Under the pieces are notes generated by a model. It saw only the letters and a program-made list of their open reading frames with translations. It did not search any database and had not been told where the DNA came from. From Escherichia phage vB_EcoS_AKFV33: DNA of 64,000 bases. The first letter of the stretch is position 1. Each line of letters opens with the position of its first letter. Shown in pieces: positions 31,676-61,471 of this stretch. The stretch is taken from the sequence record NC_017969.1, one strand, 5' to 3'. A program made the position numbers and the translations under genes.

Positions 31676-31679
31676 AATA

Positions 31680-32995: not shown

Positions 32996-33004
32996 ATAAT
33001 TCAT

Positions 33005-33375: not shown

Positions 33376-33381
33376 TGAATT

Positions 33382-33456
33382 TGGAGCACCCTGCTGGAAT
33401 TGAACCAACCTAGACGATTTTGCAGACCGTCACCTAAGCCACTCGGACAAGGATGC
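33382..33456 (-). tRNA. tRNA-Cys (anticodon GCA)
   Basis: anticodon loop CTGCAAA; CCA encoded. Confidence 0.65.
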
Positions 33457-33458
33457 AA

Positions 33459-33647
33459 TTATTCTTTATCTTCCGGCCATGAAAAGTGGATTAGATTTGC
33501 TGGCCCAAGAGTCCTGCAATAATATCCATCACCATGATCATAACCACATGTTCCACATTCACACATCTTAAATTCACCAAACTTAGTGAATAAGATTTCT
33601 GTGTCACAACAGTCGAACTTAACTAATTTAGCTTTTGGCTTCTTCAT
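33459..33647 (-). CDS. Cys-rich small protein
   Basis: 62 aa; CCDTE..CECGTCGYDHGDGYYC. Confidence 0.4.
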   Translation of the reverse strand: MKKPKAKLVKFDCCDTEILFTKFGEFKMCECGTCGYDHGDGYYCRTLGPANLIHFSWPEDKE

Positions 33648-33886
33648 TTAACACGCTCCGGTAGATCTTCGAGGTTATATTCCGTTGCTACACCAGCAGC
33701 ATCTAATAGTAAACCCATATGTTTAAGGATTTTAGTGATAGATTCACCTTCTGCTTCTTCTACAAAAGAACGTAGATGAACAAAGTCAATACCCCCATCC
33801 ATACCAGAGAAAATGTTTAGTAAGCGGAGCATTACCAGCTTACGTTCATTCAATTCTTGTTCTGTCATGTTGCTTCTCCAGTTCAA
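33644..33886 (-). CDS. hypothetical protein
   Basis: 80 aa ORF; early promoter upstream. Confidence 0.4.
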   Translation of the reverse strand: MNWRSNMTEQELNERKLVMLRLLNIFSGMDGGIDFVHLRSFVEEAEGESITKILKHMGLLLDAAGVATEYNLEDLPERVK

Positions 33887-33918
33887 TTTATGTAATTATT
33901 ATACAGAACTTTTGGAAA

Positions 33919-34206
33919 CTAAGCAACTACATTTTTTAAGAATTTGATACCTTTCTTTTTCTTCTTATATTTCCACGTTAATGGATTCTGTCGATTGTGA
34001 ACGCTTGAGATCTTTGTCTCGTCAAAGTTCTTCAATATCATGTAATCACAGGATAATTGTTCTAATGGAATGTGATTACCGTCAAAAGCATATACATAAG
34101 GCTGTTGACTAGCACGATAATGATAGACTTTGTTAATTCTACGTTTCAGCGACTTATCCGCGCAGTAAATAAAGAAGTTTTCAGGATGCATCAGCAGCTC
34201 CTTCAA
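33919..34206 (-). CDS. hypothetical protein
   Basis: 95 aa ORF (TTG start in track). Confidence 0.4.
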   Translation of the reverse strand: MKELLMHPENFFIYCADKSLKRRINKVYHYRASQQPYVYAFDGNHIPLEQLSCDYMILKNFDETKISSVHNRQNPLTWKYKKKKKGIKFLKNVVA

Positions 34207-34208
34207 TT

Positions 34209-34284
34209 TGGTGCACCCTGTTCGTATCGAACGAACCTCTCAAGCTCTTCAGGCAAGCGCTAATCCATCTCAGCTAAAGGTGCA
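34209..34284 (-). tRNA. tRNA-Phe (anticodon GAA), tentative
   Basis: anticodon loop CTGAAGA with weak stem; T-stem GTTCG/CGAAC. Confidence 0.5.
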
Positions 34285-34289
34285 AATTT

Positions 34290-34366
34290 TGGCAAACCTA
34301 CTAGGACTCGAACCTAGACCGTACGGTTTTGGAGACCGACATGCTGTCCAGTAACACTCTAGGAAT
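34290..34366 (-). tRNA. tRNA-Trp (anticodon CCA)
   Basis: anticodon loop CTCCAAA; two mismatches in acceptor stem. Confidence 0.7.
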
Positions 34367-34374
34367 GCAGAAAT

Positions 34375-34451
34375 TGGCGTCCTGTGCGGGGATCGAACCC
34401 GCAAATCCTACCTTGAAAGGGTAGTGACTTTACCAGTTTGTCTAACAGGGC
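34375..34451 (-). tRNA. tRNA-Glu (anticodon TTC)
   Basis: perfect anticodon stem CTACC/GGTAG, loop CTTTCAA. Confidence 0.75.
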
Positions 34452-34458
34452 TTAAATT

Positions 34459-34549
34459 TGGTGTTGGATGATGGAGTCGAACCACCCGAGACCCTTCCGA
34501 GTCGGCAGATTTACAGTCTGCTTCGCTACCTCTACGATACTAATCCAAC
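34459..34549 (-). tRNA. tRNA-Tyr (anticodon GTA), class II
   Basis: perfect acceptor and anticodon stems (GCAGA/TCTGC), loop CTGTAAA, long variable arm. Confidence 0.8.
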
Positions 34550-34677
34550 ATATTTAAAAATACTAAAATACTAGTTTAAACACTTTTAAATATGTTTCCA
34601 AATTAGATAACTATTATACCAAGTTTTAAGGCACTGAGCAAGTCAAATTTTAAAGAACTTGCTCAGTGCTGTATTAG

Positions 34678-34953
34678 TTAGTCGAACTTAGGAGTGACAG
34701 CTAAGGAGAATGGAAGTTCGAAAACTTCTTCACCCTCATCACTAACAGTAATTACACGGCCTTTAAGTTCAGACATTGAAATATCAATATCAGCTTTTGC
34801 ATCTGGAGCCATTCCAGCTTCAACACATTTAGCTTTAACTTCCGGCAGAAGTTCTACATCGTAGAAATAAAGCCATTCAATCTCACCTTCCCAGCCTTCC
34901 CAGGATTTACAGATTGCACTTTCAATACCAGTTGCTATAACACGATTTTGCAT
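34678..34953 (-). CDS. hypothetical protein
   Basis: 91 aa ORF. Confidence 0.45.
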   Translation of the reverse strand: MQNRVIATGIESAICKSWEGWEGEIEWLYFYDVELLPEVKAKCVEAGMAPDAKADIDISMSELKGRVITVSDEGEEVFELPFSLAVTPKFD

Positions 34954-35043
34954 TAGTTAACTCCTTCATCAATTTATATAACTATTATATCAGAAATTTA
35001 AAGCAAAAGGCAAGTACATTTTTAAAAATTCTATTTGGAGGAG

Positions 35044-35250
35044 CTAAACTCCAGATTCTTCAGCCAAGTCTAGACTAATAAGAGATATAGCCATAATTGC
35101 TGCTGTGTGCTCTTTTTCTCCAGTCTCTTTAGCTAGAGTTATAATATCAAGAATTTGCTTATGAAAGTCTGCAACCTCTTGAGTCATACCTGCTTCAGCA
35201 ATCATGCCTTTAAGCATGAAACGTTGTGCGGTAATTTCAGGATTAGCCAT
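35044..35250 (-). CDS. hypothetical protein
   Basis: 68 aa ORF. Confidence 0.4.
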   Translation of the reverse strand: MANPEITAQRFMLKGMIAEAGMTQEVADFHKQILDIITLAKETGEKEHTAAIMAISLISLDLAEESGV

Positions 35251-35425
35251 GTTGTTTCTCCAGTTTCATCTTTAATAGTCTACAAATAAAATCAATGTCT
35301 TCATCCGTGCCTAAATCTCTATCTTCAAGAGTTGCCTTGAAGTTTTTAGTCAATTCCATGAGGATAACTTCTCTAGAACGACGTGTTGGCGGAGGTGGAG
35401 GTCTATACATCTTATTTCCTTAATT

Positions 35426-35502
35426 TGGTAGGGGTGGTGGGATTCGAACCCACAAAACCTGAATTTTAAGTCCAGTACCTATGCCAATTCGATTACACCC
35501 CC
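35426..35502 (-). tRNA. tRNA with anticodon TAA (Leu-type anticodon, class-I architecture)
   Basis: anticodon stem CTGGA/TTCAG, loop CTTAAAA; A73; CCA encoded. Confidence 0.6.
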
Positions 35503-35603
35503 GTGTAATCAGTTTATTAGTTGATACATATTATAGCCTAGTGAAAATCCTACTACTAGTCCCACAAACCAACCAATATAATAATCTTTTAGTTTCACAG
35601 ATA

Positions 35604-35789
35604 TTACCCTCTTTCAATATCTAGAGAAATACCACAGTTAGGATTAATACCTGTACCATTGCAATTTGGGCAAACCCAGATATTGCAAAAAGTATCTCCT
35701 GCTTCTGCATCAGAACTTTCACCAATTCCCCTACACTCAGGGCAGGCACATTCTTCTAGCTCTTGCTTGAGTTCTTGAAACTTGGACAT
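35604..35789 (-). CDS. DnaJ-type zinc-finger small protein
   Basis: 61 aa; CPECRGIG and CPNCNGTG repeats. Confidence 0.45.
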   Translation of the reverse strand: MSKFQELKQELEECACPECRGIGESSDAEAGDTFCNIWVCPNCNGTGINPNCGISLDIERG

Positions 35790-35798
35790 ATAGTCTCC

Positions 35799-35987
35799 TT
35801 AGTCAATTACTTTTGAGGCCTCAAGGTAGTCGATATAGTGTACGTTTTCTACCGTAATCATATAATCTGCCACTTTATCCATAGCTTGGGCTTCAGAGGT
35901 AGCTCTGGCTAACCTATATCCTTTTTTATATTCATCAGGGTATTCTCTATCTTGAATAAACACAACATAAACTATGTATAATTCCAC
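35799..35987 (-). CDS. small hypothetical protein
   Basis: track ORF 35799-36134 reads through a tRNA gene; trimmed to GTG with SD AGGGGA. Confidence 0.35.
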   Translation of the reverse strand: MELYIVYVVFIQDREYPDEYKKGYRLARATSEAQAMDKVADYMITVENVHYIDYLEASKVID

Positions 35988-36007
35988 TTGTAATCCCCTA
36001 ATTAAGT

Positions 36008-36085
36008 TGGTGGCTCCCCGAGGATTCGAACCTACGTACCTTCCAGTTATGAGCTGGGTGCTCATACCATATGAGCTTGAGAACC
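36008..36085 (-). tRNA. tRNA-Met or Ile2 (anticodon CAT)
   Basis: D-stem GCTC/GAGC, anticodon loop CTCATAA; position cross-checked against ORF-track frame. Confidence 0.65.
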
Positions 36086-36091
36086 AGAATT

Positions 36092-36180
36092 TGGCGGAAG
36101 AAGTGGGAATCGAACCCACAAGGCTATATTTCAAACCGACAGATTAGCAATCTGCTGCAATACCGTTATGCTATTCTTCC
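36092..36180 (-). tRNA. tRNA-Ser (anticodon GCT), class II
   Basis: perfect 7-bp acceptor stem; anticodon loop TTGCTAA; long variable arm. Confidence 0.75.
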
Positions 36181-36201
36181 GAATTTATAAGATATATTAT
36201 A

Positions 36202-36720
36202 TTAGAAATTTAGCTTCATAGCAAGAAAATTTTTCAAGTTTTCGGTAGACATCTCATCCACATCTACAGGAGAAACAAAGCCGTTTAATTTTCTAGCAAA
36301 TTTTTCACCCGCAGGATCGTTATTCCCGACAGCTACCAATTTAAAAGGTAATAATTTCAGTTGCTTTAATAACGCTTTTCCTGGAGAAGAACCCAACATT
36401 GCTAGGGCTGGATAACCAGCGTTATGTAACGCAACTGCCTTAAATACAGATTCAGCGATCAATACTACTTTTTCATCTCCATTGAGAGTTTCTAATCCCC
36501 ATACACACTGGGTAGTAGAATAGGTAAAATATTTAGCTTCAAAGGGACACTTACCATGACCTTTTGGAGCAGAAGGATTATAAGTTTGATAGCCTCTCAA
36601 CATCCCAGAGAAATCATACAACGGGACTGTTAGCCATCCTTCCGGACTTAACCAGCAATGATATTTATCTGCATCAAATCCTCTAGATAGAAGATGTTGT
36701 GTTAATTCATCAACACCCAT
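36202..36720 (-). CDS. small TOPRIM-like domain protein
   Basis: 172 aa; VVLIAESVFKA..YPALAMLGSS..LVAVGNNDPAGEKFARKL resembles the TOPRIM acidic motif arrangement; call is low-certainty. Confidence 0.5.
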   Translation of the reverse strand: MGVDELTQHLLSRGFDADKYHCWLSPEGWLTVPLYDFSGMLRGYQTYNPSAPKGHGKCPFEAKYFTYSTTQCVWGLETLNGDEKVVLIAESVFKAVALHNAGYPALAMLGSSPGKALLKQLKLLPFKLVAVGNNDPAGEKFARKLNGFVSPVDVDEMSTENLKNFLAMKLNF

Positions 36721-36816
36721 GTTTAATCTCCTAGTTAGTTTTATAATTACATTATATAGAAAAGCCCTGCGCTCTCCAGGAAACGCAGGGCTTACTTTAG
36801 ATGTTACATGCGGGTA

Positions 36817-37764
36817 TTATTTATTACGCATATCCATGATCATTTGGCCATCATAACCAGTACCAACTACCGTCTGTGGTACACCACCTTGATACTTCTG
36901 AGCACGGATCATTTCAACTTCCAGTTGCTTCCAGCGAATCATCTCAGGAGTAATGGTACGTTGCAATGCGGCGTTAGCTTCAGCTTCTTTCTTAGCTGCG
37001 TACAGTTTAGCATCTGCGTCACGTTCATTAGCAATAGCTTGGTTGTTGCGAGCTTCACGATCTGCTTCTGCTTGTTTAACTTTTTGCTGTGCTTCCTGTT
37101 CAACACGAGCTAATTCAGCTTTAGCAGCATTAACCTGTTCTTCACGAACTTTGGTATTCTGTACCTGTTCCATGATTACCGGTGGCAAAGTAATATCCTG
37201 AAGGAACACCTGCTTAACTGTGTAACCATATGGGCGTGCATACTCTTCAACTTCCTGTTGAATTGCAGTTTGCAATTGAGCCTGAATTTTAGCATCAAAT
37301 AAATCTTGTGCTTTAGGTACAGACTTACCAAACTCACGAATAGTAGACAGTAATTTTTCAGTTACATATTTGTCTAACGCTTGATCCTGAGTACCTGCAT
37401 TAATACGGTTAATCGGTGCTTTAGAACCATCAAACTGCAACATAACAGTCAGGTCAACAGTGGATTTAAACTTATCCTGACTAGGAACCTGAAGTTTATC
37501 TAATTTTAGAGCAATATCTTTAGTACTAAAAGTATCAAAAGAAGCAAAAGGATTTACAATATGGAAACCAGGTAATACTGGATTAGGATCAACTTTACCC
37601 AAGAAAGTCTGGGTCTTAACAGTACCGTCTTGAACAACGGTATAGGAGTTAAGAGCTAGAACTAAACCTGCTAAACCAACTACAGCACCAATCCCCCAAC
37701 GTTTAATAGTACGAATTACTTTCTGCTCAGAAGTCAGTTCTTTCATATTTTTAGTATTAAACAT
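36817..37764 (-). CDS. SPFH/band-7 family membrane protein (prohibitin/HflC-like)
   Basis: 315 aa; N-terminal TM segment, SPFH-like core, C-terminal Ala/Glu/Gln-rich coiled coil. Confidence 0.65.
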   Translation of the reverse strand: MFNTKNMKELTSEQKVIRTIKRWGIGAVVGLAGLVLALNSYTVVQDGTVKTQTFLGKVDPNPVLPGFHIVNPFASFDTFSTKDIALKLDKLQVPSQDKFKSTVDLTVMLQFDGSKAPINRINAGTQDQALDKYVTEKLLSTIREFGKSVPKAQDLFDAKIQAQLQTAIQQEVEEYARPYGYTVKQVFLQDITLPPVIMEQVQNTKVREEQVNAAKAELARVEQEAQQKVKQAEADREARNNQAIANERDADAKLYAAKKEAEANAALQRTITPEMIRWKQLEVEMIRAQKYQGGVPQTVVGTGYDGQMIMDMRNK

Positions 37765-37798
37765 ATATTTCCTTTGTTTTAGTTACAGTTAATAAAAT

Positions 37799-37873
37799 TG
37801 GCCGAGGTGACAGGATTCGAACCTGCATAAAGGAATTTAGAAGACTCCTGCCTCTCCCTTAGACTACACCCCG
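37799..37873 (-). tRNA. tRNA-Arg (anticodon TCT)
   Basis: anticodon loop CTTCTAA; CCA encoded. Confidence 0.7.
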
Positions 37874-47931: not shown

Positions 47932-50262
47932 TTAAATAGTACAACCACCGGATGCACAACCGGCTGCTTCTTCTCCAGCACCTCCACCATTTGCGGTATT
48001 GAAGTTAGCGTAATACCAAGTTTTCCACCCATACTTAACAGCAGTCATGAAATCACGAACTACTACTGGGCCAGGAATGATTTCATTCTCAAACTTGGTG
48101 TAGTCATAGTACATATTCGTACTGATAGACTGACTGAAGAATTTCTGCATAGTTGCTACCCATTTGATCCACTCGATACGATCTACATCATAAGCCAGTT
48201 TATAGCTCATTAACGTTTCCCAATCGGTTGCACCTGGAGCAATTGCAATTACTTTATTTACTGCACTACCTTTAATAGATACAATCTTACGAGGCGGTTC
48301 GATAGAGTTAGTAACTCCTAGCAGAACAGAAGAACTTTCTCCTGGCATCTGAGCAGTCAGAACAGAGTTACGCATACCATATTTCAGAATATCTGCACGC
48401 AGAGACTCCCAATCCATTTCTAGACCTACGGATACCAGTTCATCAACAGTTTTCTTGTACGTGTCGATTACCAGAATTCCTTTAGATGGTTTAGTGCGAT
48501 CAAACCACTCGCATGCACCCTGTTCTTTAGCTAGGCGTACAGAGGCTTTATGCAGGAAGTAAGACAGTTTTTCAGCCTCACGGTGAATCCAGTTACGGGC
48601 TTCAATACCTTCATAAGCCAGACCTTCTGCTGCCATTGCACCTGCTGCGTTCATTAGTCCAATACCAACATTACGACGTTTCTTAGCCGTATATTCCATA
48701 GTTGGGAACGGATAATCCTGAATTTCAATAATTGTATCAACGAATTTCAGAAGGATGTAGCAAGTTTTTTCCCACTCAGCCAGAGATTCCATGCGCCCAA
48801 GTACAACACCACCTAAGTTACACAGAGATACTTCACCAATATCCTCCGGCTTCATTTGATCAAGCTGCTCTTTTGTCTTATACAGCTCTGTGATATGATG
48901 GAACGGGCGTGTAGGCTGAGTAATTTCAACACAAAGGTTTGTCATACGGATCGGATCAAGGAAGTTACCGTGACGATTAGATTCCCCGATGTGATGAGCA
49001 TACATACGTCCTGTTTCCATTCGGATACGTAGCCAAGTATCTAGGATTTCTTTTGCAGAGACTTTAGGAGCTGCAGGAACTGTTTTTCCTTCGTGGTCGA
49101 TCTTTGTAAGAGATGCCACACGTTTCTCCGCTGCCACGTAGATTTCTTCAAATTTAGCCTCGTCATCACTATAAAACGCTTCATGAACTTCTGGAGCATA
49201 GAAGTATGACATTAGCGTAATATCTTCGTTTTTAAGATAACGTTTTAACAAAAGATTGTTAAAGCTCAGAGAATAATCCATCTTATCGATTTTATTCTCA
49301 TCTGTAGCACGTTGTTGCTTAACCTGCATCAATTGAATGATTTCAGGGTCGAAGTATGGATAAGACACTGTAGCAGAACCACCACGAGTTTGCTGAGTAT
49401 TGGCCTTTACTGAGCGGTCAATGTGTCGATAATATGGTAGTTTTCCGGAATGCGGGAATGCCCCATTTCGCACCGGATCAGCAATTGATCGGCTTTCAAG
49501 ATGATACCCGATTCCCGCTCTGGCTGCGACCATTTTGAAGACGATGTGCTCGGCGGTGTCGATTGAATCCAACGTGTCAGTGGAATCCACGAGGCAGCAA
49601 CTAGCAAATCCACGGTCACTAGAGCGCAGACCAACCAGTGGCGGCGTAGGAACGTTGATTTTGTGGAGTGACATTGCGTTGTAGAGGTCGATTGCATCTA
49701 GAATTGTCCAGTTAGGTTGAGATAACATCGCCATTGCCATACCCATGTAGGCAAACTGCGGAGTTTCATAAATTTCACCAGTGGCTATGTTACGACGGGA
49801 ATACTTATCAAAGAACTGCTTCAGTCCACCACTAGTAAAAAGACGGTCACGATCATGGTCGATAACCTGATTCAGAGCTTCAAATTGCTCATCGGTAATC
49901 CATGCACTCATGTCTTCCCATGCACCTACGCTAACCATGTGGTCATGGAAGAAGCGCAGAGAAGGCGGTTCGAAGGAATCATAAAGGCGTTTACGCATTT
50001 GCGCAAGACGTAATTCCTTTGCTGGCACATCATATGCTGGATTATCTTTAATAAGACTTTCAGCAGCTTTAATTAATGCATCCATCAGAGTGTCGGAATC
50101 TACAACCCCTTTAGGCAGAGTTTTTTGAGCAGCCATAGTAATGGCTGACCAACTTACATCAACTGTTTTGCAACCATACTCTGCCCAACCATTTAGTTTT
50201 TCAGGAGCAAAGTCTTCTACAGTACCGTCACGTTTAATTACTTTTTCAATGCGATGGCTCAT
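47932..50262 (-). CDS. nrdA: ribonucleotide reductase class Ia alpha subunit
   Basis: ATP-cone N-terminus (MSHRIEKVIKRDGT); track ORF extends to 50367 but ATG at 50262 has SD AAAGGAAAG. Confidence 0.85.
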   Translation of the reverse strand: MSHRIEKVIKRDGTVEDFAPEKLNGWAEYGCKTVDVSWSAITMAAQKTLPKGVVDSDTLMDALIKAAESLIKDNPAYDVPAKELRLAQMRKRLYDSFEPPSLRFFHDHMVSVGAWEDMSAWITDEQFEALNQVIDHDRDRLFTSGGLKQFFDKYSRRNIATGEIYETPQFAYMGMAMAMLSQPNWTILDAIDLYNAMSLHKINVPTPPLVGLRSSDRGFASCCLVDSTDTLDSIDTAEHIVFKMVAARAGIGYHLESRSIADPVRNGAFPHSGKLPYYRHIDRSVKANTQQTRGGSATVSYPYFDPEIIQLMQVKQQRATDENKIDKMDYSLSFNNLLLKRYLKNEDITLMSYFYAPEVHEAFYSDDEAKFEEIYVAAEKRVASLTKIDHEGKTVPAAPKVSAKEILDTWLRIRMETGRMYAHHIGESNRHGNFLDPIRMTNLCVEITQPTRPFHHITELYKTKEQLDQMKPEDIGEVSLCNLGGVVLGRMESLAEWEKTCYILLKFVDTIIEIQDYPFPTMEYTAKKRRNVGIGLMNAAGAMAAEGLAYEGIEARNWIHREAEKLSYFLHKASVRLAKEQGACEWFDRTKPSKGILVIDTYKKTVDELVSVGLEMDWESLRADILKYGMRNSVLTAQMPGESSSVLLGVTNSIEPPRKIVSIKGSAVNKVIAIAPGATDWETLMSYKLAYDVDRIEWIKWVATMQKFFSQSISTNMYYDYTKFENEIIPGPVVVRDFMTAVKYGWKTWYYANFNTANGGGAGEEAAGCASGGCTI

Positions 50263-50404
50263 TTGGCTTTCCTTTTTATAGTTATCAGGATTTAAGGAAT
50301 ATTCTACTTTATTATCGGTCATTAGGCAAATAAAATTTTCTGATAGAAAAGGCCCGAGTATTTTCATACCCAGGCCCTGTATATTACCAGTCTAGCTTTT
50401 TAGC

Positions 50405-50626
50405 TTATTCAATTACTTTAGCTCTAGCTACTTCTTTTAATAGAATATCTATGGAGGTGCTCAGCTCGTTATAATTGAATGGTTTATTTGGATTTGAGGT
50501 TACAATTTTCCACGCTAGGGTTGTCTTAGGACTTTCTTCCCCTTCCTTACGTGTAATCATATTAGCAGCACTCAGTGAAGTACGATGTATTTTAGTTTTA
50601 CGGCTCAGATGAACGACGTTTCCCAT
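50405..50626 (-). CDS. hypothetical protein
   Basis: track ORF trimmed to ATG abutting phoH stop. Confidence 0.4.
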   Translation of the reverse strand: MGNVVHLSRKTKIHRTSLSAANMITRKEGEESPKTTLAWKIVTSNPNKPFNYNELSTSIDILLKEVARAKVIE

Positions 50627-50627
50627 A

Positions 50628-51380
50628 TTACACCTTCCCCATGTCTTTAAAGATGTCATAGAATGCTTTAGACTCAACAGAACGAACGTTATCAATCAAT
50701 TCGATCATTGAGAATGGGGCATTTTCGTATTTCTCATAGACTTCCATAAGGAGTGCTAGACCTGAGTCACCTTTAATGTCTTTCTGAGCTATATCTCCGC
50801 AGATAATTAAACGGCAGTCTTGTCCTACACGAGTTAGAAGACAAATCATTGCCTCAACGGAAATATTCTGAGCTTCATCGACAATTACATAGGAGTTGTT
50901 GAAAGTTCTGCCACGAGCATGTTCGACAGCCAAAAATTTAATTTTCTGACGTTCGACATATCCCTTATAGGCATGATCGCCGATGGCCCATTTCATACCA
51001 TCAGCTATTGGCTCCAACCAAGGCTCTAGCTTTTCTGCTAGATCACCAGGAAGCATACCAAGAGACTTACCTAGAGGTTCATTAGGACGTACGAGGATAA
51101 CTTGCTCAATATCTGAGTGAATGTCTACGAGTTCCTGAGCTGCAAGAACGGACGGAATAAAGGTTTTACCAGTACCTGGCTCACCGATACCCACAGTCAC
51201 TGTGTTGTTCTTGATCATATTGATATATGATTTTTGCTCGCGGTTTTTACCTACTAGGGATTTAGCAACTGGGTTAGCGTAATCATTAGAAAAATCAGCC
51301 TGAATTACGTTATTCTCATACTTGTTGCCACGCTTTCTTGAACCATTGCGGTTCTCTCTTTTTTGACGTGCTTTTCCCAT
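50628..51380 (-). CDS. phoH: PhoH-like ATPase
   Basis: Walker A GEPGTGKTF; ATG at 51380 has SD AGGAG upstream (track starts at a GTG). Confidence 0.8.
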   Translation of the reverse strand: MGKARQKRENRNGSRKRGNKYENNVIQADFSNDYANPVAKSLVGKNREQKSYINMIKNNTVTVGIGEPGTGKTFIPSVLAAQELVDIHSDIEQVILVRPNEPLGKSLGMLPGDLAEKLEPWLEPIADGMKWAIGDHAYKGYVERQKIKFLAVEHARGRTFNNSYVIVDEAQNISVEAMICLLTRVGQDCRLIICGDIAQKDIKGDSGLALLMEVYEKYENAPFSMIELIDNVRSVESKAFYDIFKDMGKV

Positions 51381-51682
51381 AAATAACACTCCTATAGTGT
51401 ACTTCGCTAACAGAGGATCAACAAAAAGATCTTGTTTATCAACTTACAAATATATTATACCAATATATACAGTAAAAAGCAACTACAATTTTAAATAAGC
51501 CTATGATATTGCATTTAAATAAAAAATTTGCTTGCTTTTAACGTGAGATGTGTGATACTAGATAATCATTTTATATCGCGTACACGAGTGCGTGATTATA
51601 CAATCTTTAATAGAAATTGGCAAATAAAATTTTTTCAAAAATTGATTAAAGTCAAGTTATTTAAGAATGCTAAAAAATTTTA

Positions 51683-51712
51683 TTGACATAGTGGTATTTT
51701 TATATTATACTA
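51683..51712 (+). promoter_or_regulatory. sigma70 promoter (-35 TTGACA) for rightward genes
   Basis: consensus TTGACA followed by TATATTATAC, about 25 nt upstream of the SD for gene 51735. Confidence 0.5.
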
Positions 51713-51734
51713 TGTACTAAATAGGAGAAATAAA

Positions 51735-52403
51735 ATGCCAAAGAAATTGAGTACGGAAGAAGTCAATAATAGACTTTTAGATAGAGGAATTGTCTTAGTT
51801 GGGGAGTATATAAATGCTAATACTAAGGCTAGTTTTAGATGTTCAGTGGGGCATGTATGGGAAACAAAACCATCAGTGTTACTTAACATGGGATTTGGAT
51901 GTCCATATTGCAGTGGGAAAGCTAAACTAACTCCTGAAGTAATAAACCAGGAATTAAGTAATAAAGGAATACAAATAGTAGGCAAATATGTAAATAATAG
52001 AACTCCGACCCTTTTTAGGTGTGAAAATGGCCATGAGTGGAATACTACTATTAATGCAGTGAAAAATTTAGACAGTAATTGCCCGATATGTAAAAAAGAA
52101 GGCAGGTCTAAAACAAAACTATATGTTATGTATAGTGAATCTTTAGGTACTAAGATTGGTATCTCTAATAAACCGGGAACTAGATTAGGAAAAATTAGCA
52201 GAAATGCTAATATACCAGATCTTAAATTATTTAAAGTATTTGATATCTTAGATTATACTAAGTGCCGTAAAATTGAGAAAGCAGCACATGAGCATTTTAA
52301 AGAATGGAACTGCTATTATAAGGATTTTGATGGTGCTACAGAGTTTTTTGATATTGAACCAGATACAGCAGTAAAATTTATTGAGGAAAATATTAATGAC
52401 TGA
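51735..52403 (+). CDS. T5orf172-domain protein (GIY-YIG-like superfamily) with N-terminal zinc-ribbon repeats; homing-endonuclease-like
   Basis: 222 aa; repeated FRCSVGHVW..CPYC and FRCENGHEW..CPIC units; call from domain recollection. Confidence 0.55.
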   Translation: MPKKLSTEEVNNRLLDRGIVLVGEYINANTKASFRCSVGHVWETKPSVLLNMGFGCPYCSGKAKLTPEVINQELSNKGIQIVGKYVNNRTPTLFRCENGHEWNTTINAVKNLDSNCPICKKEGRSKTKLYVMYSESLGTKIGISNKPGTRLGKISRNANIPDLKLFKVFDILDYTKCRKIEKAAHEHFKEWNCYYKDFDGATEFFDIEPDTAVKFIEENIND

Positions 52404-56725: not shown

Positions 56726-57154
56726 ATGTTCAATAATGTATTCTCTAAAGAAGCTAACCCAATTTTGGTTAACTTTTGGCGTACTCTCCCAGCTAGCCTG
56801 TATAATGAGGCTATTAACTCTTTGAAAATATGGTGTGAGAATAACGAAATCTCCTTTGCTTTTAAAGATGATATTGATGAGGCTCCCTGTATTGGTTTAA
56901 TTGTGCAGGTAGAGGAGGGTCTTGAAGAGATTGTGGGCTGGAAAGAGTTAGACGAAATGGGCTTAGTTTTTGCGTTAAATTATAAACTGTTTATGCCTGC
57001 TAAGCATCGCCTTGTTGTTAACTATAAAACTAGTGAATCTCCTGGTTTTCAGGTTAATGAACGTTATGGTTGGTCTTACTCACCGGAAGAAGTAAATGAG
57101 GGGATTCAGAAACTTCGACGTTTCGGGTATATGATCCCGGGTTTAACTGCTTAA
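56726..57154 (+). CDS. hypothetical protein, paralog A
   Basis: 142 aa; shares DDPCIG..ALN..LF.P and C-terminal G-x-x-I/V-PGL with the next ORF. Confidence 0.5.
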   Translation: MFNNVFSKEANPILVNFWRTLPASLYNEAINSLKIWCENNEISFAFKDDIDEAPCIGLIVQVEEGLEEIVGWKELDEMGLVFALNYKLFMPAKHRLVVNYKTSESPGFQVNERYGWSYSPEEVNEGIQKLRRFGYMIPGLTA

Positions 57155-57163
57155 GGAGGCAGG

Positions 57164-57556
57164 ATGGAACAAGTATATTGGCGTCAGATTGACCCTAGTT
57201 TGGTGAAACGTGCGGAGAAGCTGCTACAACGTTGGTTGGGGGTAAGGCAAGCCTCCTTCTCTTTTCCGGAGCAGCAAACGGATGATCCATGCATTGGCGT
57301 TTTCCTGTCTGGATATGCCGGGGAATGGGAGATGGATTGGAATGAATTGTCCGCTATGAGTTTAATTGTTGCCCTAAATTTCTCTTTGTTCCATCCACGT
57401 GGTTTGGCCATATGTCGTGTGCCTGATGACGGTTGTTCGCCCCATCTTTTACAGGTGGAAGATGATATTTGGGAGTACACTCCAGATATTCTCAAAGAAG
57501 CTAAAGAACAATTAAACCGTGTTGGGATTTATGTTCCAGGCCTAAATGATGAATGA
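57164..57556 (+). CDS. hypothetical protein, paralog B
   Basis: 130 aa; tandem paralog of the previous ORF. Confidence 0.5.
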   Translation: MEQVYWRQIDPSLVKRAEKLLQRWLGVRQASFSFPEQQTDDPCIGVFLSGYAGEWEMDWNELSAMSLIVALNFSLFHPRGLAICRVPDDGCSPHLLQVEDDIWEYTPDILKEAKEQLNRVGIYVPGLNDE

Positions 57557-57695
57557 TTTTTATTAGCTGAAATTTGTAATCCGGGCTATTAGTGCTCGGA
57601 TTATTACATAATCTTTCCAGTCGATTGACAGTCAAAATAAATTGTCGTTGACAATTTGGATGGATTATGTAATAATATATGTATTGGAGGTGAGG

Positions 57696-58148
57696 ATGTC
57701 ATTCACACAGCAAGAACTTTTAGATAACTTCCGATATGAAGATGGTAAGTTATTTAGAACTACAGGAAGAAATGCAGGGAAAGAATGTTGTGTTTCTACG
57801 GGTAACGGATATTATCGTATATCTCTAGGGAATAGGACTATGCTTCGGCATAGAGCAATATTTTTAATGCATCATGGATACTTACCTGATTTAGTAGATC
57901 ATGTGAATACTATAAAAGGTGATGATCGTATTGAAAATCTTAGAGAGCAGACAGTGTCCGGTAATCTAAGAAATATCAAATATAAGAAAGGAATGCATGT
58001 TTACCCTTCTGGTAGTAAGAACTGGCAAGTAGTATTTACTATTAACCGTAAACGTATAGTTAAAGGAACATATGACAACTATGAGGTTGCATGTTCTATG
58101 GCCAAGATGTTTAGAGGTCAATTATACGGTAGGGAATCAATCCAGTAA
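57696..58148 (+). CDS. HNH homing endonuclease-like protein
   Basis: ATG at 57696 with SD GGAGGTGAGG; HNH-type motif (YYRISLGNRTMLRHRAIF..DHVN..N) with AP2-like C-terminus. Confidence 0.65.
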   Translation: MSFTQQELLDNFRYEDGKLFRTTGRNAGKECCVSTGNGYYRISLGNRTMLRHRAIFLMHHGYLPDLVDHVNTIKGDDRIENLREQTVSGNLRNIKYKKGMHVYPSGSKNWQVVFTINRKRIVKGTYDNYEVACSMAKMFRGQLYGRESIQ

Positions 58149-58155
58149 AATTTCA

Positions 58156-58186
58156 TTTGCAAGGGAGTATTATTTTATAGTATAAT
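58156..58186 (+). promoter_or_regulatory. sigma70-type early promoter (TTTGCA-n19-TATAAT) at the start of a ~0.5 kb leader
   Basis: -35 and -10 hexamers with A/T-rich upstream region. Confidence 0.45.
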
Positions 58187-58681
58187 ATTCCCATAAATGA
58201 GAGACATTAGTAAAAATTGATTTTGCTAATTTTTCTTGTTTACAATCCGCGATACGGAACAGTTAGGCTGCCCCATTAAGGGTTGTTTTAACTATTACTA
58301 GTGTTTATATTGCATTAGTTAATCTTCAATTAAGTGATCTGTGTACCCTGAATTCGGAAAGGTAAATCCAAACCGTGCATATTTAGCTCGTTATATAGGC
58401 AGAGCTTTATATGGGGGTGCGAACGAAAAGAGCAGCGAATGGCGGCACGTACAGTAGTCACCTACCAATAGGATAGTGAGGACAAATAGAATCGGCTTAG
58501 CGGCCAATGACCTAGGTTCTATTCTGTATATGAGCGAAGAGAGCACAGCACTGAGATATGATAACTTATTCATATTGTTTGATGATAATTGATGTTTACG
58601 TAAATAGTAGTAATAGTTGTTCTATTCTTTCTGAATAGTCCTAAAGAAAAGATTTCTATTAATCAACACAGGAGTATTGTT

Positions 58682-61471
58682 GTGTTTTCTATCCTCCAAG
58701 GTCACGCCGGGTTTTCTCGTGATTTAGCAACAGGTATTTGGCGAGAAATCAAAGCGGAAGATTATACCTTTGCCAAACGATTCTCGAAAGAGCATCCAGA
58801 AGGTAAACCAGCTTCTATGCCCTTCAAATTTGATGTAATAGAAGAGCACGACCCACAAAGCCTTGCCGAAATGTTACCACTTATGAGACGTTTAACGTCT
58901 GACCCTCATATCGTTGCGGTACGAGGTCGATGTCTTGCACCTAAAAATAATGTGCGACGTAAGAAAGGTAACTTTAATGTATCCAACCCTAGCAATATTA
59001 TTGCTATGGACGTGGATGGTATCCTAGATACCGGTGGGTATGACAAGTTTAATCTTGTAGGTATGGCTCGACATATTATTAGGATGTTAAATAGTATTAG
59101 TGAGGATATGTTTCCTCTTGATGCAGGGTTTATCGCTCATGCATCGTCTTCGGCTGGGCTAAAACCAGGTATCCGAATGCACTTAATACTAGAATCTAAT
59201 GTTAAGGTAACTCAGGGTCAAATCAAATTCTTATTTACATCTATCAACGAAAGTAGTAGACAAAAGTATGGCTTTGATATTGCCGACTTAGCTTATTACT
59301 CTTCCGTACAGCTCCATTATTTTGCAGATCCGTTATTTACCGATGGTATAGTAGATCCGTTTAAAGCGGAGAGTAAGCCACGTCTGGTATATGTTAAAGG
59401 TTCGAAGGTAAATTTGCCCAATAATCTGGTTGACTATGAAACAACTAGAGGGGAATTTAAGGAAGAGTTTTATTCTTTACTTGATCAAATTAAAGGCAAA
59501 AAGATTGCTTCTGATAAAGTAGAAGAAACCATCAGCGAATTGGAAGAAGCCGAGGATGGGGTGTACTTGCGTATTATCCCCAAACTCTACCATAGAGCAT
59601 TAGAGGATGGTGTTGATTTCGCATGGCTAGAACGTGAGATTAAACCCGCTTTATCTGAATATATTGCAACTAAAGATAACAGTCGTAATATTCAAGATTA
59701 CTTTAATAACGGTCGTAAGCAGGCTCTCAAAGCGTTTGTTAATAATTCTAAACGTGAGATCCCATTAAATCTGAAGGGTGTTCCACTCAAGAAATTAGAA
59801 GTGGATTCTCCACCAGAAGTTCCGTACCTGAAGATTAACATTGTGCCTCCAAAAGGCCATATAACATTTGTTAAGGCAAGTCTTGGTACTGGTAAGACTA
59901 CGGCAGTAACTAAATGGCTGGACGCAGGTGTTCTTCCTGGCAACTTTTTAGCAGTTACAAATACTAGAGCACTGGTATCTTCAAACGCTAAGAAATTTAG
60001 CGCAGGACAATATGATAAGTCTGTAGATATGCTCAACTTTAAACGTGGAGCTATTGATCGTATGTCTACAACTATCCACTCTTTGCATAAGTTCAAAAGT
60101 TTTATTGGTCAAATAGATACCATTTTTATTGATGAATGTGATGCTGTAATGAATGATCTATTATTCGCACCTGTTGTTAAGCAACGTCGCGAATGTATTC
60201 AAGTTCTACGTGACATCCTCATGACAGCTAAAACTGTAATTCTATCTGATGGGGATATTAGTGCAGAAACAATTGAAGCATATGGTTCTCTAATTGATTT
60301 TGATAAACCAGTAGCATTTTATAATCATCACCGTAAGATGCTGTCAAAAGCTCATGCTTATGAGTTCCCGGATGAATCCAGTATTTGGGTTGCACTTCAG
60401 ACCTCTCTAGAGATGGGTGAGAAATCTATCCTAGTATCTGATTGTGGGCCGGATGAACTGAATGAGAAGGGCATGGCGTTGCGTCGTAATACGGGTGCGT
60501 TAGTTAAGGAAATCCACTCAAACTCTACGTCTGATGTAGATATTCGACGTATTCTGGATTACACAACTAATGAGCTAATTGACCAACAAATTGATTGCTT
60601 ATTATGTAGTCCATCCGTAACTAGTGGTGTTGACTTCAACTATTTTGATAACGTATTCGTTATTACTAGAACCAGCAACCAAGCGCCAAACATGCGTTTC
60701 CAAGCAATCAGGCGCGACCGTGGTGCTCAGAACATTTATTATTTTATTGATAAATCTACGAGTGGATTCTCCGCAGGTTCTGAACAATATAATATTGATG
60801 AGGGTTGGCTGGAGTTAGCACAGCAATTATACGCACGTCGTAGGGAGCTGGAATCTAGGAATTATACTAGTACCTTACGTTATTACTTGCTTGATCAGGG
60901 TGCAACTATTGATATTTTCAGTGAAAGCTGGGGAACTATCGAAGGTGCAGGCAAAGAGTATACAGAAGAGCGAATCAAAGCCATTTTGTATTCAACTCCT
61001 GATTATTGCGCTCCACGTCATGCGGATGCGTATGAAGCTAAACTACTTCTTGTTCGCTACTATCATCTTGAGTCTATTAAAGATGTAACAGTTGAGCATG
61101 TTGAACAATATATCAAGGATAAACCTAATGATCGGGCTGCATTCTTCCATAAAATGCACGAGATGTTCTGGGAAGATATTAAGAAGTGTTCAAATGTCAC
61201 TATCAAACCATTCATAGAAGCTCTGAAAGGTAAGAAGAAAGATTTCTTCCTTAAAACAGGTCAGAGTGCTAACCCAAAATATGCCAGAATGTATCTTGGT
61301 ATGATGGGTATTGGTAAAGATATGAACACGGAGAATATTGTAGACTGGTACAGAACTTATTGTAAAATCGAGTGTATGCCAATCCCATATAAGTTTATGA
61401 CTGATGAGGAGAAACATATGCATGATGAAGCAATGGCAGAGCTAGGTGCTAGAAATGACAGTGAAGAATAA
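58682..61471 (+). CDS. large SF2-type helicase/ATPase; putative replication origin-binding/initiator helicase
   Basis: 929 aa, GTG start with SD AGGAG; Walker A ASLGTGKTT and DExD-type FIDECD. Confidence 0.7.
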   Translation: MFSILQGHAGFSRDLATGIWREIKAEDYTFAKRFSKEHPEGKPASMPFKFDVIEEHDPQSLAEMLPLMRRLTSDPHIVAVRGRCLAPKNNVRRKKGNFNVSNPSNIIAMDVDGILDTGGYDKFNLVGMARHIIRMLNSISEDMFPLDAGFIAHASSSAGLKPGIRMHLILESNVKVTQGQIKFLFTSINESSRQKYGFDIADLAYYSSVQLHYFADPLFTDGIVDPFKAESKPRLVYVKGSKVNLPNNLVDYETTRGEFKEEFYSLLDQIKGKKIASDKVEETISELEEAEDGVYLRIIPKLYHRALEDGVDFAWLEREIKPALSEYIATKDNSRNIQDYFNNGRKQALKAFVNNSKREIPLNLKGVPLKKLEVDSPPEVPYLKINIVPPKGHITFVKASLGTGKTTAVTKWLDAGVLPGNFLAVTNTRALVSSNAKKFSAGQYDKSVDMLNFKRGAIDRMSTTIHSLHKFKSFIGQIDTIFIDECDAVMNDLLFAPVVKQRRECIQVLRDILMTAKTVILSDGDISAETIEAYGSLIDFDKPVAFYNHHRKMLSKAHAYEFPDESSIWVALQTSLEMGEKSILVSDCGPDELNEKGMALRRNTGALVKEIHSNSTSDVDIRRILDYTTNELIDQQIDCLLCSPSVTSGVDFNYFDNVFVITRTSNQAPNMRFQAIRRDRGAQNIYYFIDKSTSGFSAGSEQYNIDEGWLELAQQLYARRRELESRNYTSTLRYYLLDQGATIDIFSESWGTIEGAGKEYTEERIKAILYSTPDYCAPRHADAYEAKLLLVRYYHLESIKDVTVEHVEQYIKDKPNDRAAFFHKMHEMFWEDIKKCSNVTIKPFIEALKGKKKDFFLKTGQSANPKYARMYLGMMGIGKDMNTENIVDWYRTYCKIECMPIPYKFMTDEEKHMHDEAMAELGARNDSEE

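What the first reader, a model, noticed from the sequence alone, without database searches (positions are those of the whole stretch)
58150..58681. 0.5-kb non-coding leader with tandem promoters upstream of the large helicase gene
The 929-aa SF2 helicase/initiator gene (GTG start) is preceded by ~530 bp without credible ORFs, containing a consensus early promoter (58156-58186), a second weaker promoter-like element and a GC-richer segment. This could be a regulatory 5' UTR, a small RNA, or an origin-proximal region bound by the adjacent initiator.
Basis: inference. Interest (0 to 1): 0.45.

Follow-up and report, generated by a model that had tools for sequence, protein, structure and literature searches.

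The report
Structured leader RNA co-evolving with helicase
The 0.5-kb "empty" stretch in front of the phage T5-type D2 replication helicase gene encodes a large, conserved, folded RNA that no database lists, and its two natural variants are always paired with matching variants of the helicase, which gives a concrete candidate for how this initiator is controlled or where it acts.

Summary
The window is a T5-like phage. The 929-aa gene is T5 D2, a bipolar SF2 helicase and putative replication initiator. The gap 58149-58681 is real and non-coding. It starts with one conserved sigma-70 early promoter (-10 at 58181-58186). The second "promoter" is a chance-level match that is not conserved, so "tandem promoters" fails.

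The leader is not a plain spacer. It is a roughly 490-nt, plus-strand RNA with at least 12 helices, and compensatory base changes support it in Tequintavirus, Epseptimavirus, Klebsiella and Pectobacterium T5-like phages. Rfam has no match, and the T5 RefSeq record leaves this stretch unannotated.

The 330-nt core is closed by a long-range helix (58289-58329 with 58579-58619). It exists as two alleles about 62% identical, between flanks that are 91-100% identical. Each allele is perfectly associated with one allele of D2 residues 36-419, densest at 362-419. In public phage records, 260 are A/A, 152 are B/B and 0 are mixed. Yet recombination scrambles the DNA between the two sites, and the two genes upstream show no association.

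My best reading is that D2 recognises this element, most likely as an RNA operator on its own mRNA. The main rival is an origin or initiation element. Binding and function are inferred, not shown.

The parts
58157..58186 (+). Early sigma-70 promoter (-35 TTGCAA 58157-58162, 18-nt spacer, -10 TATAAT 58181-58186). Inferred transcription start near 58193.
   Evidence: Scored 10 of 12. TTGC-N17/18-TATAAT is conserved at a fixed distance upstream of the RNA motifs in all enterobacterial lineages. The homologous site is annotated as a promoter in T5 RefSeq. The start site is inferred, not measured.
58193..58681 (+). Inferred ~490-nt structured leader RNA of the D2 mRNA.
   Evidence: No plus-strand terminator-like site lies between the promoter and the gene. 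Plus-strand MFE is -132.4 kcal/mol (z -3.5) against -97.8 (z -1.7) for the minus strand. 22 of 155 consensus pairs are G.U, which would be A.C mismatches on the other strand. Rfam has no hit.
58199..58237 (+). P1, a 5'-terminal hairpin of 16 pairs.
   Evidence: Tested on alignment A3 with the given structure: 6 of its 16 pairs change on both sides across lineages and 91.9% of cells are paired.
58242..58286 (+). P2, a three-part hairpin with the conserved internal-loop motif UACGGAAC and the tip hairpin CAGU-UAG-GCUG (motif 58253-58271).
   Evidence: 8 of its 15 pairs change on both sides; pair 57/84 appears as GU, AU, CG, GC and UA. The motif is kept in the Klebsiella, Pectobacterium and Eos lineages.
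58289..58329 (+). P3 5' strand, part of the long-range helix that closes the central domain.
   Evidence: It pairs with 58579-58619. Cognate 5'/3' flank duplexes score -22 to -38 kcal/mol, against mostly -10 to -22 for non-cognate lineage pairs. One example of a compensatory change: AACUAUUAC/GUAAUAGUU against AACUGUUAC/GUAACAGUU.
58579..58619 (+). P3 3' strand.
   Evidence: Same evidence as the P3 5' strand.
58294..58612 (+). Central domain, allele A. This is the hyper-divergent cassette: A and B alleles are 62% identical, while the 5' domain is 100% and the 3' part 91% identical.
   Evidence: RNAalifold run independently on A/Eps sequences and on B sequences gives the same architecture.
58333..58344 (+). 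P4 (AGUG) and P5 (CUGUGU) 5' strands. Their partners are at 58543-58552.
   Evidence: P5 appears as CUGUG/CACAG (window), CUGCG/CGCAG (Epseptimavirus and some B) and CUACA/UGUAG (B), which are compensatory changes.
58449..58529 (+). P8 (GUACAG 58449-58454 with CUGUAU 58524-58529), enclosing hairpin P9 (58457-58483) and the m2 hairpin.
   Evidence: Compensatory A-U to C-G change between window and Epseptimavirus. In the CM-based cross-lineage alignment, 4 of 8 pairs change on both sides.
58485..58523 (+). m2 hairpin. The outer stem is AAAUAGAAUC/GGUUCUAUU. The inner hairpin is GGCU-UAGC-GGCC (58494-58505), the most conserved motif of the RNA.
   Evidence: CUUAGCGG is kept in all enterobacterial lineages, including Proteus. 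The outer stem has a different sequence in every lineage but stays paired (6 of 8 pairs change on both sides).
58555..58576 (+). m3 hairpin (GAUAUGA-UAACUUAU-UCAUAUU).
   Evidence: It appears as GGGG...CCCC in the B allele and in other forms elsewhere. 5 of 6 pairs change on both sides.
58622..58638 (+). 3' hairpin CUAUUC-UUUCU-GAAUAG inside an invariant block (58612-58645).
   Evidence: Invariant in Tequintavirus and Epseptimavirus. It appears as CUAUC/GAUAG, CCAUC/GAUGG and CUUUCC/GGAAAG in other lineages.
58665..58686 (+). Hairpin that pairs the Shine-Dalgarno edge and the GUG start codon (AACACAG with UUGUGUU; AGGAG at 58670-58674; GUG at 58682-58684).
   Evidence: The L032 lineage has CAU paired with an AUG start where T5-like phages have CAC paired with GUG. 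Other lineages occlude the SD or start codon in other ways.
58682..61471 (+). D2 gene: a 929-aa bipolar SF2 helicase and putative replication initiator, homologous to T5.108.
   Evidence: Literature: PMC3632103.
59765..59938 (+). D2 codons 362-419, the segment just before and around Walker A. Its allele co-varies perfectly with the leader's central-domain allele.
   Evidence: 18 of the 29 fully discriminating protein columns lie here. DNA identity between A and B is 67% here, against 93% in the rest of the gene. The association is shown.
58217..58246 (+). Second promoter-like match, which I do not accept as a feature.
   Evidence: It scores 9 of 12, at chance level. It lies within the P1 3' strand and the P1-P2 joiner and is not conserved in the L032 or Eos lineages.

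Best explanation
The gap encodes a ~490-nt, highly structured plus-strand RNA. It is transcribed from one conserved early promoter and continues into the D2 helicase/initiator gene. The layout is a 5' hairpin domain (P1-P2), a 330-nt multi-helix core closed by a long-range helix (P3), a conserved 3' hairpin, and a small hairpin that pairs the ribosome-binding edge and the GUG start codon. I propose that D2, through its N-terminal 420 residues, specifically recognises the core of this RNA on its own mRNA and thereby sets how much D2 is made (autogenous control of translation and/or mRNA stability). Shown here: the conservation, the RNA-type covariation, the strand specificity, the absence of coding potential, and the perfect allele-to-allele association with D2. 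Inferred: that the RNA is made from this promoter, that D2 binds it, and that the outcome is regulation of D2 synthesis.
For: RNA structure:
- The 5' domain is 91.4% paired against 39-48% when partners are slid, 14 of 31 pairs change on both sides, and 0 of 500 shuffles reach the score.
- In the A/Epseptimavirus alignment, 155 pairs include 6 compensatory and 10 one-sided (G.U-type) changes with only 2 broken cells, against 0-1 compensatory pairs in slid controls.
- The B allele, folded independently, gives the same architecture with 5 more compensatory pairs.
- The CM-based cross-lineage alignment of P8/m2/m3 is 90.6% paired against 42-53% slid, with 16 of 26 pairs changed on both sides.
- Cognate P3 flanks pair far better than non-cognate ones.
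- The fold is strand-specific.

Context:
- No conserved ORF, no Rfam family, and no terminator before the gene.
- The start codon and SD are occluded in a conserved way, including a CAC/GUG to CAU/AUG change.

Link to D2:
- 29 of 132 variable D2 columns separate leader alleles A and B perfectly, and all lie in residues 36-419.
- There are 0 discriminating columns in the two variable genes just upstream.
- The association profile has two peaks, with mostly four-gamete sites between them.
- Complete association at 1.1-1.7 kb is 0 of 4,860 site pairs elsewhere, but 2,682 of 5,535 between the RNA core and D2 codons ~360-425.
- All 40 loci held are concordant.
- Database-wide there are 260 A/A and 152 B/B records and 0 of either mixed type.
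- No RNA-RNA complementarity between leader and that coding segment explains it.
Against: There is no expression, end-mapping or binding data for this region in any paper I could find.

Known phage translational operators are small (tens of nt), and a 330-nt core is far more than an operator needs.

Proteus T5-like phages carry a second perfect (12 of 12) promoter 37 nt before D2, downstream of the RNA-like region. There D2 can be expressed without the leader, which argues against a purely cis-regulatory role.

The association shows co-adaptation but cannot tell RNA recognition from DNA recognition.

Each compensatory change between A and Epseptimavirus sequences is probably a single evolutionary event. 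The CM alignment is fitted to the structure. The sub-structure around P6 and P9 is not resolved consistently between alleles.
Confidence: 0.4

Rival explanations
1. Replication origin or initiation element. D2 is the initiator, and this element is its cognate loading or priming site. It could act as double-stranded DNA, as displaced structured plus-strand DNA, or as an R-loop or structured RNA made from the early promoter. The two alleles would be two origin-initiator specificity types.
For: D2 is the putative T5 initiator: it is UL9-like, its amber mutants make no DNA, and no T5 origin has been mapped in sequence (PMC3632103). Perfect allele matching between an initiator's N-terminal part and an adjacent nucleic-acid element is the classic signature of ori-initiator modules. 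The core is flanked by AT-rich segments with GC 0.25-0.29. The Proteus second promoter suggests the element works independently of D2 translation. The element sits next to the rep-type gene near the middle of the genome.
Against: No iteron-like repeats were found: only 2-copy, 8-22-nt matches. The constraint is on plus-strand base pairing with G.U tolerance and long-range helices 290 nt apart, which double-stranded origin DNA does not need. The cumulative GC-skew minimum is at about 50-52 kb, not here. Recombitron strand bias suggested mainly unidirectional replication of T5 from one genome end (PMC10055335).
Confidence: 0.3
2. Stand-alone trans-acting non-coding RNA. The long P3 duplex is a processing stalk, for example for RNase III as in rRNA precursors. 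It would release a stable ~330-nt RNA that acts elsewhere, for instance as an RNP partner of D2 or another protein, or in host takeover or anti-defence.
For: The core is a self-contained module closed by a ~35-bp long-range helix kept in every lineage. It is exchanged as a cassette between invariant flanks. The Proteus phages have a separate D2 promoter. Its size and complexity resemble large phage ncRNAs.
Against: No terminator or own 3' end signal is present. No processing data exist. The tight allele matching with D2 ties it to D2 rather than to an unrelated target. It was found only directly upstream of D2.
Confidence: 0.12
3. Ordinary long leader or spacer. On this view the conservation and the D2 association are by-products of linkage, homing-endonuclease-driven gene conversion, or population structure.
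For: An HNH homing-endonuclease gene sits right upstream in some phages, including this window. T5-like genomes are mosaic.
Against: Linkage would decay monotonically and would include the nearer upstream genes. Instead those genes have 0 discriminating sites, there is a second peak 1.2 kb away, and four-gamete sites lie between the two peaks. Compensatory changes preserve helices. The 5' domain is 100% identical between alleles whose neighbouring genes differ by 7-15%.
Confidence: 0.03
4. Unannotated small protein genes occupy the gap.
For: ORFs of 26-60 aa exist on both strands in the window. Some records annotate 'hypothetical proteins' here.
Against: None is conserved in position, frame or length between the A, Epseptimavirus and B alleles or other lineages. 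Substitution patterns follow base pairing, not codons.
Confidence: 0.02

Closest known systems
Autogenous translational operators of phage replication proteins (T4 gene 32, gene 43 and regA targets; from my own knowledge)
   Same: A replication protein is proposed to bind the 5' leader of its own mRNA next to an occluded ribosome-binding site. The element lies in the 5' UTR and is transcribed with the gene.
   Different: Those operators are single hairpins or pseudoknots of a few tens of nt. This element is ~490 nt with at least 12 helices and a swappable 330-nt core. Binding is not shown here. Proteus relatives have a promoter that bypasses the leader.
Origin-initiator specificity modules (lambdoid O protein with ori iterons, plasmid Rep with iterons, HSV-1 UL9 with oriS; from my own knowledge, plus PMC3632103 for the UL9-D2 homology)
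   Same: A discrete nucleic-acid element lies next to the initiator gene. Its allelic types are matched one-to-one with allelic types of the initiator's non-catalytic part. AT-rich flanks are present.
   Different: No iterons were found. The conserved property is single-strand, plus-strand, RNA-type base pairing rather than duplex sequence repeats. No replication data exist.
ColE1 RNA II pre-primer (from my own knowledge)
   Same: A ~500-nt structured transcript starts at a dedicated promoter and has a replication role that depends on its fold.
   Different: ColE1 has no plasmid-encoded initiator and is controlled by an antisense RNA I. No antisense promoter was found here. This transcript runs into a protein gene. 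No RNase H or primer evidence exists.
Large structured phage-associated ncRNAs (GOLLD, ROOL; Rfam families)
   Same: A large, multi-helix, covariation-supported RNA encoded by phages, with unknown biochemical function.
   Different: No match to these or any of the 4,227 Rfam models, even at E up to 10. This RNA is a leader fused to one specific gene and co-evolves with that gene's product.
RNase III processing stalks flanking rRNAs and T7 early RNAs (from my own knowledge)
   Same: A long duplex formed by sequences flanking a structured RNA (P3, about 35 bp).
   Different: Cleavage is not shown. P3 has internal loops, and no end-mapping data exist.

Membership tests
Any described RNA family (Rfam 15) | A score at or near the family's covariance-model threshold | tested here: not met
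   No match at E <= 1 in window 57000-59500. Across 10 other lineages only unrelated sub-threshold hits outside the element appeared.
Sigma-70 early promoter of T5 type | -35 and -10 hexamers with a 16-18-nt spacer, conserved in relatives | tested here: met
   Scored 10 of 12 at 58157-58186. Conserved as TTGC-N17/18-TATAAT in all enterobacterial lineages. Annotated as a promoter in T5 RefSeq. Activity itself was not tested.
   The match at 58217-58246 scores 9 of 12. The count of such matches equals the shuffled expectation. It is not conserved where the sequence varies.
Conserved structured RNA | Base pairs maintained by compensatory changes, more than in controls, on one strand | tested here: met
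   (paired 90-99% against 36-53% slid; 14, 6, 5 and 16 pairs changed on both sides). Strand asymmetry is shown.
Independent sRNA gene | Own terminator or defined 3' end before the next gene | tested here: not met
   No plus-strand terminator-like site lies between 58186 and 58682. The 3' hairpin lacks a U-tract.
Iteron-type replication origin | Three or more direct repeats of ~17-22 bp that serve as initiator binding sites | tested here: not met
   Only two-copy repeats of 8-22 nt at 73-100% identity were found.
Iteron-type replication origin | An AT-rich unwinding region adjacent to the binding sites | tested here: inconclusive
   GC is 0.25-0.29 at 58150-58250 and 58550-58700, but these segments are also the paired strands of P1 and P3.
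Origin-initiator specificity module | Element type matched to initiator type across natural variants | tested here: met
   260 A/A records, 152 B/B records, 0 mixed.
Origin-initiator specificity module | Replication initiates at the element | not testable with these tools
   This needs marker-frequency or nascent-strand mapping. GC skew is uninformative because its minimum at 50-52 kb coincides with the strand switch of genes.
Autogenous translational operator | Located in the regulated gene's own leader, with structure involving the SD or start codon | tested here: met
   The hairpin 58665-58686 pairs the GUG start codon and the SD edge and is conserved with a compensatory start-codon change.
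Autogenous translational operator | The gene product binds the leader and represses translation | not testable with these tools
   There is only indirect support from allele co-variation.
Riboswitch | A known aptamer class, or a ligand pocket with an expression platform | tested here: inconclusive
   No known class matches. An expression-platform-like SD/start hairpin exists, but nothing points to a ligand. Allele matching with a protein argues for a protein partner.
Protein-coding region | An ORF conserved in frame and length among relatives | tested here: not met

The most novel reading that the evidence does not exclude
This element is the missing cis-acting partner of the T5 initiator. It would be a transcribed, folded nucleic-acid 'origin' (structured RNA, R-loop or displaced strand) that the D2 helicase recognises in an allele-specific way to start replication. 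Initiator specificity would then be read from an RNA-type fold rather than from duplex iterons.
Probability: 0.25. Interest if true: 0.85.

Novelty: new variant of a known kind. Interest (0 to 1): 0.7.

Why it matters
T5 is a classic model phage, yet its replication origin has never been mapped in sequence and the role of D2 is still inferred from homology.

This analysis turns an unannotated 0.5-kb gap into a defined object with three properties:
- A large RNA fold with mapped helices.
- Conservation across several genera of T5-like phages.
- Two natural specificity types that never occur with the wrong D2 type in about 420 sequenced phages.

That gives simple experiments a clear expected outcome: cognate against non-cognate binding, allele swaps, origin mapping and reporter fusions. 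It also adds a sizeable structured RNA family that Rfam lacks. Finally, it warns annotators that the small 'hypothetical proteins' called here in some genomes, and the extended D2 starts in others, are probably artefacts.

Tried and rejected
- **Rfam:** searches of the window region and of 10 other lineages found nothing relevant.
- **Coding potential:** there is no conserved ORF.
- **Iterons or repeats:** none is convincing.
- **Antisense promoter or terminator:** the only minus-strand 'terminator' hit (58508-58491) is the reverse complement of the m2 hairpin.
- **RNA-RNA pairing:** pairing between the leader core and D2 codons 355-425 could have explained the co-variation, but cognate duplex energies are no better than non-cognate or shuffled ones.
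- **GC skew as an origin marker:** the minimum is at about 50-52 kb, where gene orientation switches, so it is not informative for 58.4 kb.
- **D2 N-terminal domain:** Pfam, PHROGs, PDB sequence and profile searches found nothing beyond 'replication origin binding'. The protein database returned one partial homologue only. Single-sequence AlphaFold gave pLDDT 35, which is unusable, so I ran no fold search.
- **Distant relatives:** the 5'-domain and P8-m3 covariance models did not find the element in Vibrio T5-like phages or the most distant metagenomic relatives. Proteus phages share only motifs, and their three sequences are too similar for covariation.
- **Alignment method:** plain MAFFT mis-registers the divergent alleles. 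I therefore analysed cross-allele helices with covariance models, local folds and cognate/non-cognate duplex energies.
- **Literature:** searches found no paper on this leader, on T5 transcript ends here, or on a mapped T5 origin. Bourguignon et al. 1976 was not available.
- **Motif scan of viral contigs:** every true match lay upstream of D2 in T5-like contigs; the other matches were unrelated chance hits.
Full report
**What is there**

The window is a T5-like phage. The region is 99.4% identical to Escherichia phage H8, and about 440 Tequintavirus and Epseptimavirus records match it.

The finding's interval, 58149-58681, lies between two genes:
- An HNH homing-endonuclease gene at 57696-58148. 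This gene is present only in some relatives.
- A 929-aa GTG-start ORF at 58682-61471.

The 929-aa ORF is the homologue of T5.108, that is D2. D2 is a biochemically characterised bipolar SF2 helicase with a UL9-like core. Its amber mutants make no DNA, and it has been proposed as the T5 replication initiator (PMC3632103 read).

In the T5 RefSeq record a terminator and a promoter are annotated upstream. The following ~470 nt up to the D2 start carry no annotation.

**Checking the observation**

The gap has no conserved ORF. The ORFs of 26-60 aa seen in the window change length, frame or disappear in the Epseptimavirus, B-allele, Klebsiella, Pectobacterium and other lineages.

The first promoter is confirmed as a pattern:
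- It reads TTGCAA, 18-nt spacer, TATAAT, with the -10 at 58181-58186, and scores 10 of 12.
- It is conserved as TTGC-N17/18-TATAAT at a fixed distance from downstream motifs in every enterobacterial lineage.

The second "promoter" at 58217-58246 is not supported:
- It is a 9 of 12 match in a region where such matches occur at the shuffled rate (13 found, 11.0 +/- 3.1 expected).
- It lies inside a conserved hairpin strand.
- It is not promoter-like in the L032 and Eos lineages.

The GC-richer segment at 58350-58550 is real. It corresponds to the core of the RNA fold described below.

A long gap upstream of D2 is a family trait. It measures 530-890 bp in all 31 IMG/VR loci. It is about 600 bp in Pectobacterium, Klebsiella and Eos phages, 820 bp in Proteus phages and 700-860 bp in Vibrio phages.

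**The leader is a structured RNA**

The plus strand folds much better than its shuffles and than the minus strand: -132.4 kcal/mol with z -3.5, against -97.8 with z -1.7. In the consensus structure, 22 of 155 pairs are G.U, which would be mismatches on the other strand.

Comparative evidence comes from five tests.

1. **The 5' domain (P1 58199-58237; P2 58242-58286).** I aligned 11 distinct sequences from six lineages.
   - 91.4% of cells are paired, against 39-48% when partners are slid.
   - 14 of 31 pairs change on both sides.
   - No shuffle out of 500 reaches the covariation score.
2. **The A-allele plus Epseptimavirus alignment.** Of 155 predicted pairs, 6 are compensatory, 10 change on one side only (G.U-type) and only 2 cells are broken. 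Slid controls give 0-1 compensatory pairs.
3. **The B allele.** Folded independently, it returns the same architecture with 5 further compensatory pairs.
4. **A covariance model of P8, m2 and m3, used to align 13 distinct sequences from the A, Epseptimavirus, B, L104, Klebsiella-type, Eos and Pectobacterium lineages.**
   - 90.6% of cells are paired, against 42-53% slid.
   - 16 of 26 pairs change on both sides.
   - The caveat is that this alignment is fitted to the model.
5. **The long-range helix P3 (58289-58329 with 58579-58619).** Its sequence differs in every lineage, yet cognate flanks form duplexes of -22 to -38 kcal/mol. Non-cognate combinations mostly give -10 to -22.

The most conserved single-stranded or loop motifs are:
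- UACGGAAC in P2.
- The hairpin GGCU-UAGC-GGCC at 58494-58505. It appears as GACU...GGUC in a Pectobacterium phage and as CCU...GGG in Proteus, both compensatory.
- The block around the 3' hairpin at 58622-58638.

A last hairpin, 58665-58686, pairs the Shine-Dalgarno edge and the GUG start. The Klebsiella-type lineage has CAU paired with AUG instead of CAC paired with GUG.

No plus-strand terminator separates the fold from the gene. Rfam 15 has no matching family in the window or in ten other lineages.

Parts of the core, around P6 and P9, are predicted differently in the two alleles. I consider them unresolved.

**Two alleles, and a perfect match with D2**

Within Tequintavirus and Epseptimavirus the core exists in two forms. 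The table gives DNA identity between allele A (window, T5) and allele B (SPC35-like), all.

| Segment | A vs B identity |
|---|---|
| 5' domain of the leader | 100% |
| Core of the leader | 62% |
| 3' part of the leader | 91% |
| D2 codons ~362-419 | 67% |
| D2 downstream of nt 1300 (rest of the gene) | 93% |

In 28 loci (16 A, 12 B), 29 of 132 variable D2 protein columns separate the two leader alleles without exception. All 29 lie in residues 36-419: 18 of them at 362-419, just before and around Walker A, and none in 420-929.

The two genes immediately upstream are highly variable (57 and 73 variable columns) yet have no discriminating column.

Along the DNA, discriminating sites form two peaks, at the core and at 59800-60000. 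Few lie between them and none lie outside. Between the peaks most common sites show all four gametes with the leader allele, so recombination has occurred there repeatedly.

As a background measure, I counted complete association between common biallelic sites 1.1-1.7 kb apart. It is 0 of 4,860 pairs elsewhere in the locus, but 2,682 of 5,535 for pairs between the core and the D2 segment.

One lineage, Shivani/SHSML-45, has an A core, a B-like spacer and first codons, and A-type D2 residues from position 36 onward.

I then tested the whole phage collection with chimeric BLAST queries:

| Query (core + D2 segment) | Records matched | Places | Records with both pieces |
|---|---|---|---|
| A core + A segment | 274 | 534 | 260 |
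| B core + B segment | 165 | 317 | 152 |
| A core + B segment | 426 | 426 | 0 |
| B core + A segment | 425 | 425 | 0 |

Records include some duplicates of the same genome. Direct RNA-RNA pairing between the core and that coding segment does not explain the link. The simplest reading is co-adaptation between the element and the N-terminal part of the D2 protein.

**Mechanism**

Shown here:
- A conserved promoter pattern.
- A conserved plus-strand fold.
- An occluded start site.
- An element-protein allele match.

Inferred:
- The RNA is made from this promoter.
- D2 physically recognises the element.

I put most weight (0.4) on D2 binding the core of its own leader RNA and thereby controlling its own synthesis. 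This fits the location, the RNA-type constraint and the start-site hairpin. It also has precedent in phage replication proteins that repress their own mRNAs, though their operators are far smaller.

The main rival (0.3) is that the element is the cognate initiation site of D2, acting as structured single strand, R-loop or DNA.
- In its favour: type-matched initiator-element pairs are typical of replicons, the flanks are AT-rich, and Proteus relatives have a second perfect promoter 37 nt before D2 that bypasses the RNA-like region.
- Against it: no iterons, the single-strand nature of the constraint, an uninformative GC skew, and a published hint of unidirectional T5 replication from one end (PMC10055335).

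A processed, trans-acting ncRNA released by cleavage in P3 is possible (0.12). A plain spacer or hidden small genes are effectively excluded.

**Comparison with known systems, and novelty**

The element works like either an autogenous leader operator or an origin-initiator specificity module.
- It meets the type-matching criterion of the origin-initiator module and the location/start-occlusion criterion of the leader operator.
- It fails the iteron criterion.
- The binding and initiation criteria cannot be tested here.

It belongs to no Rfam family, and I found no paper describing it. I therefore class it as a new variant of a known kind: a new, unusually large structured leader RNA family that co-evolves with the initiator helicase it precedes.

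**Limits**

- No transcript, structure-probing or binding data exist.
- The transcription start is inferred from the promoter pattern.
- Several compensatory changes reflect single evolutionary events.
- The element could not be traced in Vibrio T5-like phages.
- The association cannot tell RNA recognition from DNA recognition.

Noticed in passing
window 57696-58148; L001 (Shivani) about 3040-3140: An HNH homing-endonuclease gene is inserted between the T5.107 homologue and the leader promoter in this window and some relatives, but not in T5. In Shivani the cassette is followed by a second copy of the promoter plus the first ~55 nt of the leader, so the insertion joint duplicates the element's 5' end. 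HNH-bearing phages also use a variant promoter spacer (18 nt).
   Followed up: partly
L016, L018, L036 (about 1985-2085 of each locus): A ~100-nt insertion sits inside the leader between P1 and P2 in DT571/2-like phages. The 5'-domain model matches twice there, so the insert seems to carry its own P1-like hairpin.
   Followed up: no
window 58682-59581 (D2 residues 1-300): Across nine lineages the N-terminal domain keeps an invariant DxD (IIAMDVDG, D110/D112) and HASSSAGxKPGxRxH (154-167). From memory these resemble motifs I and II of archaeo-eukaryotic primase-polymerases, which would make D2 a primase-helicase fusion. Pfam, PDB sequence and profile searches found nothing, and single-sequence AlphaFold failed.
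   Followed up: partly
L094 (Proteus phage VTCCBPA139) 705-733 and 1435-1464: There are two perfect (12 of 12) sigma-70 promoters. One lies in front of a ~700-nt RNA-like region carrying UACGGUUCG and GCCUUAGCGGGU motifs. The second lies 37 nt before the D2 start. The first 430 nt are 100% identical in three Proteus phages, while the last 270 nt vary.
   Followed up: partly
window about 50000-52000: The cumulative GC skew of the window has its minimum here, where skew turns from negative to positive. It probably marks the switch in gene orientation. It is not at the leader.
   Followed up: no
window 58388-58399 (P6b loop) and 58562-58569 (m3 loop): The loops of hairpins P6b and m3 are complementary over 5-6 nt in several lineages, with different sequences: GUUAU/AUAAC here, GUUAGU/ACUAAC in Eos, GUCAU/GUGAC in L032 and GCAAU/GUUGC in DU_PP_V. 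This could be a kissing interaction. My rough estimate is that chance alone gives such a match in about a quarter of lineages, so it is unproven.
   Followed up: no
HQ406778 (SPC35) 58057 and MH370367 (S114) CDS starts; Klebsiella and Vibrio records: Several GenBank records extend the D2 start 120-200 nt upstream into the leader, or annotate 29-55-aa 'hypothetical proteins' inside the gap. Given the lack of ORF conservation these look like annotation artefacts.
   Followed up: partly
window 27840-37873, minus strand: A cluster of 23 tRNA genes, the T5 tRNA region. It is unrelated to the finding.
   Followed up: no
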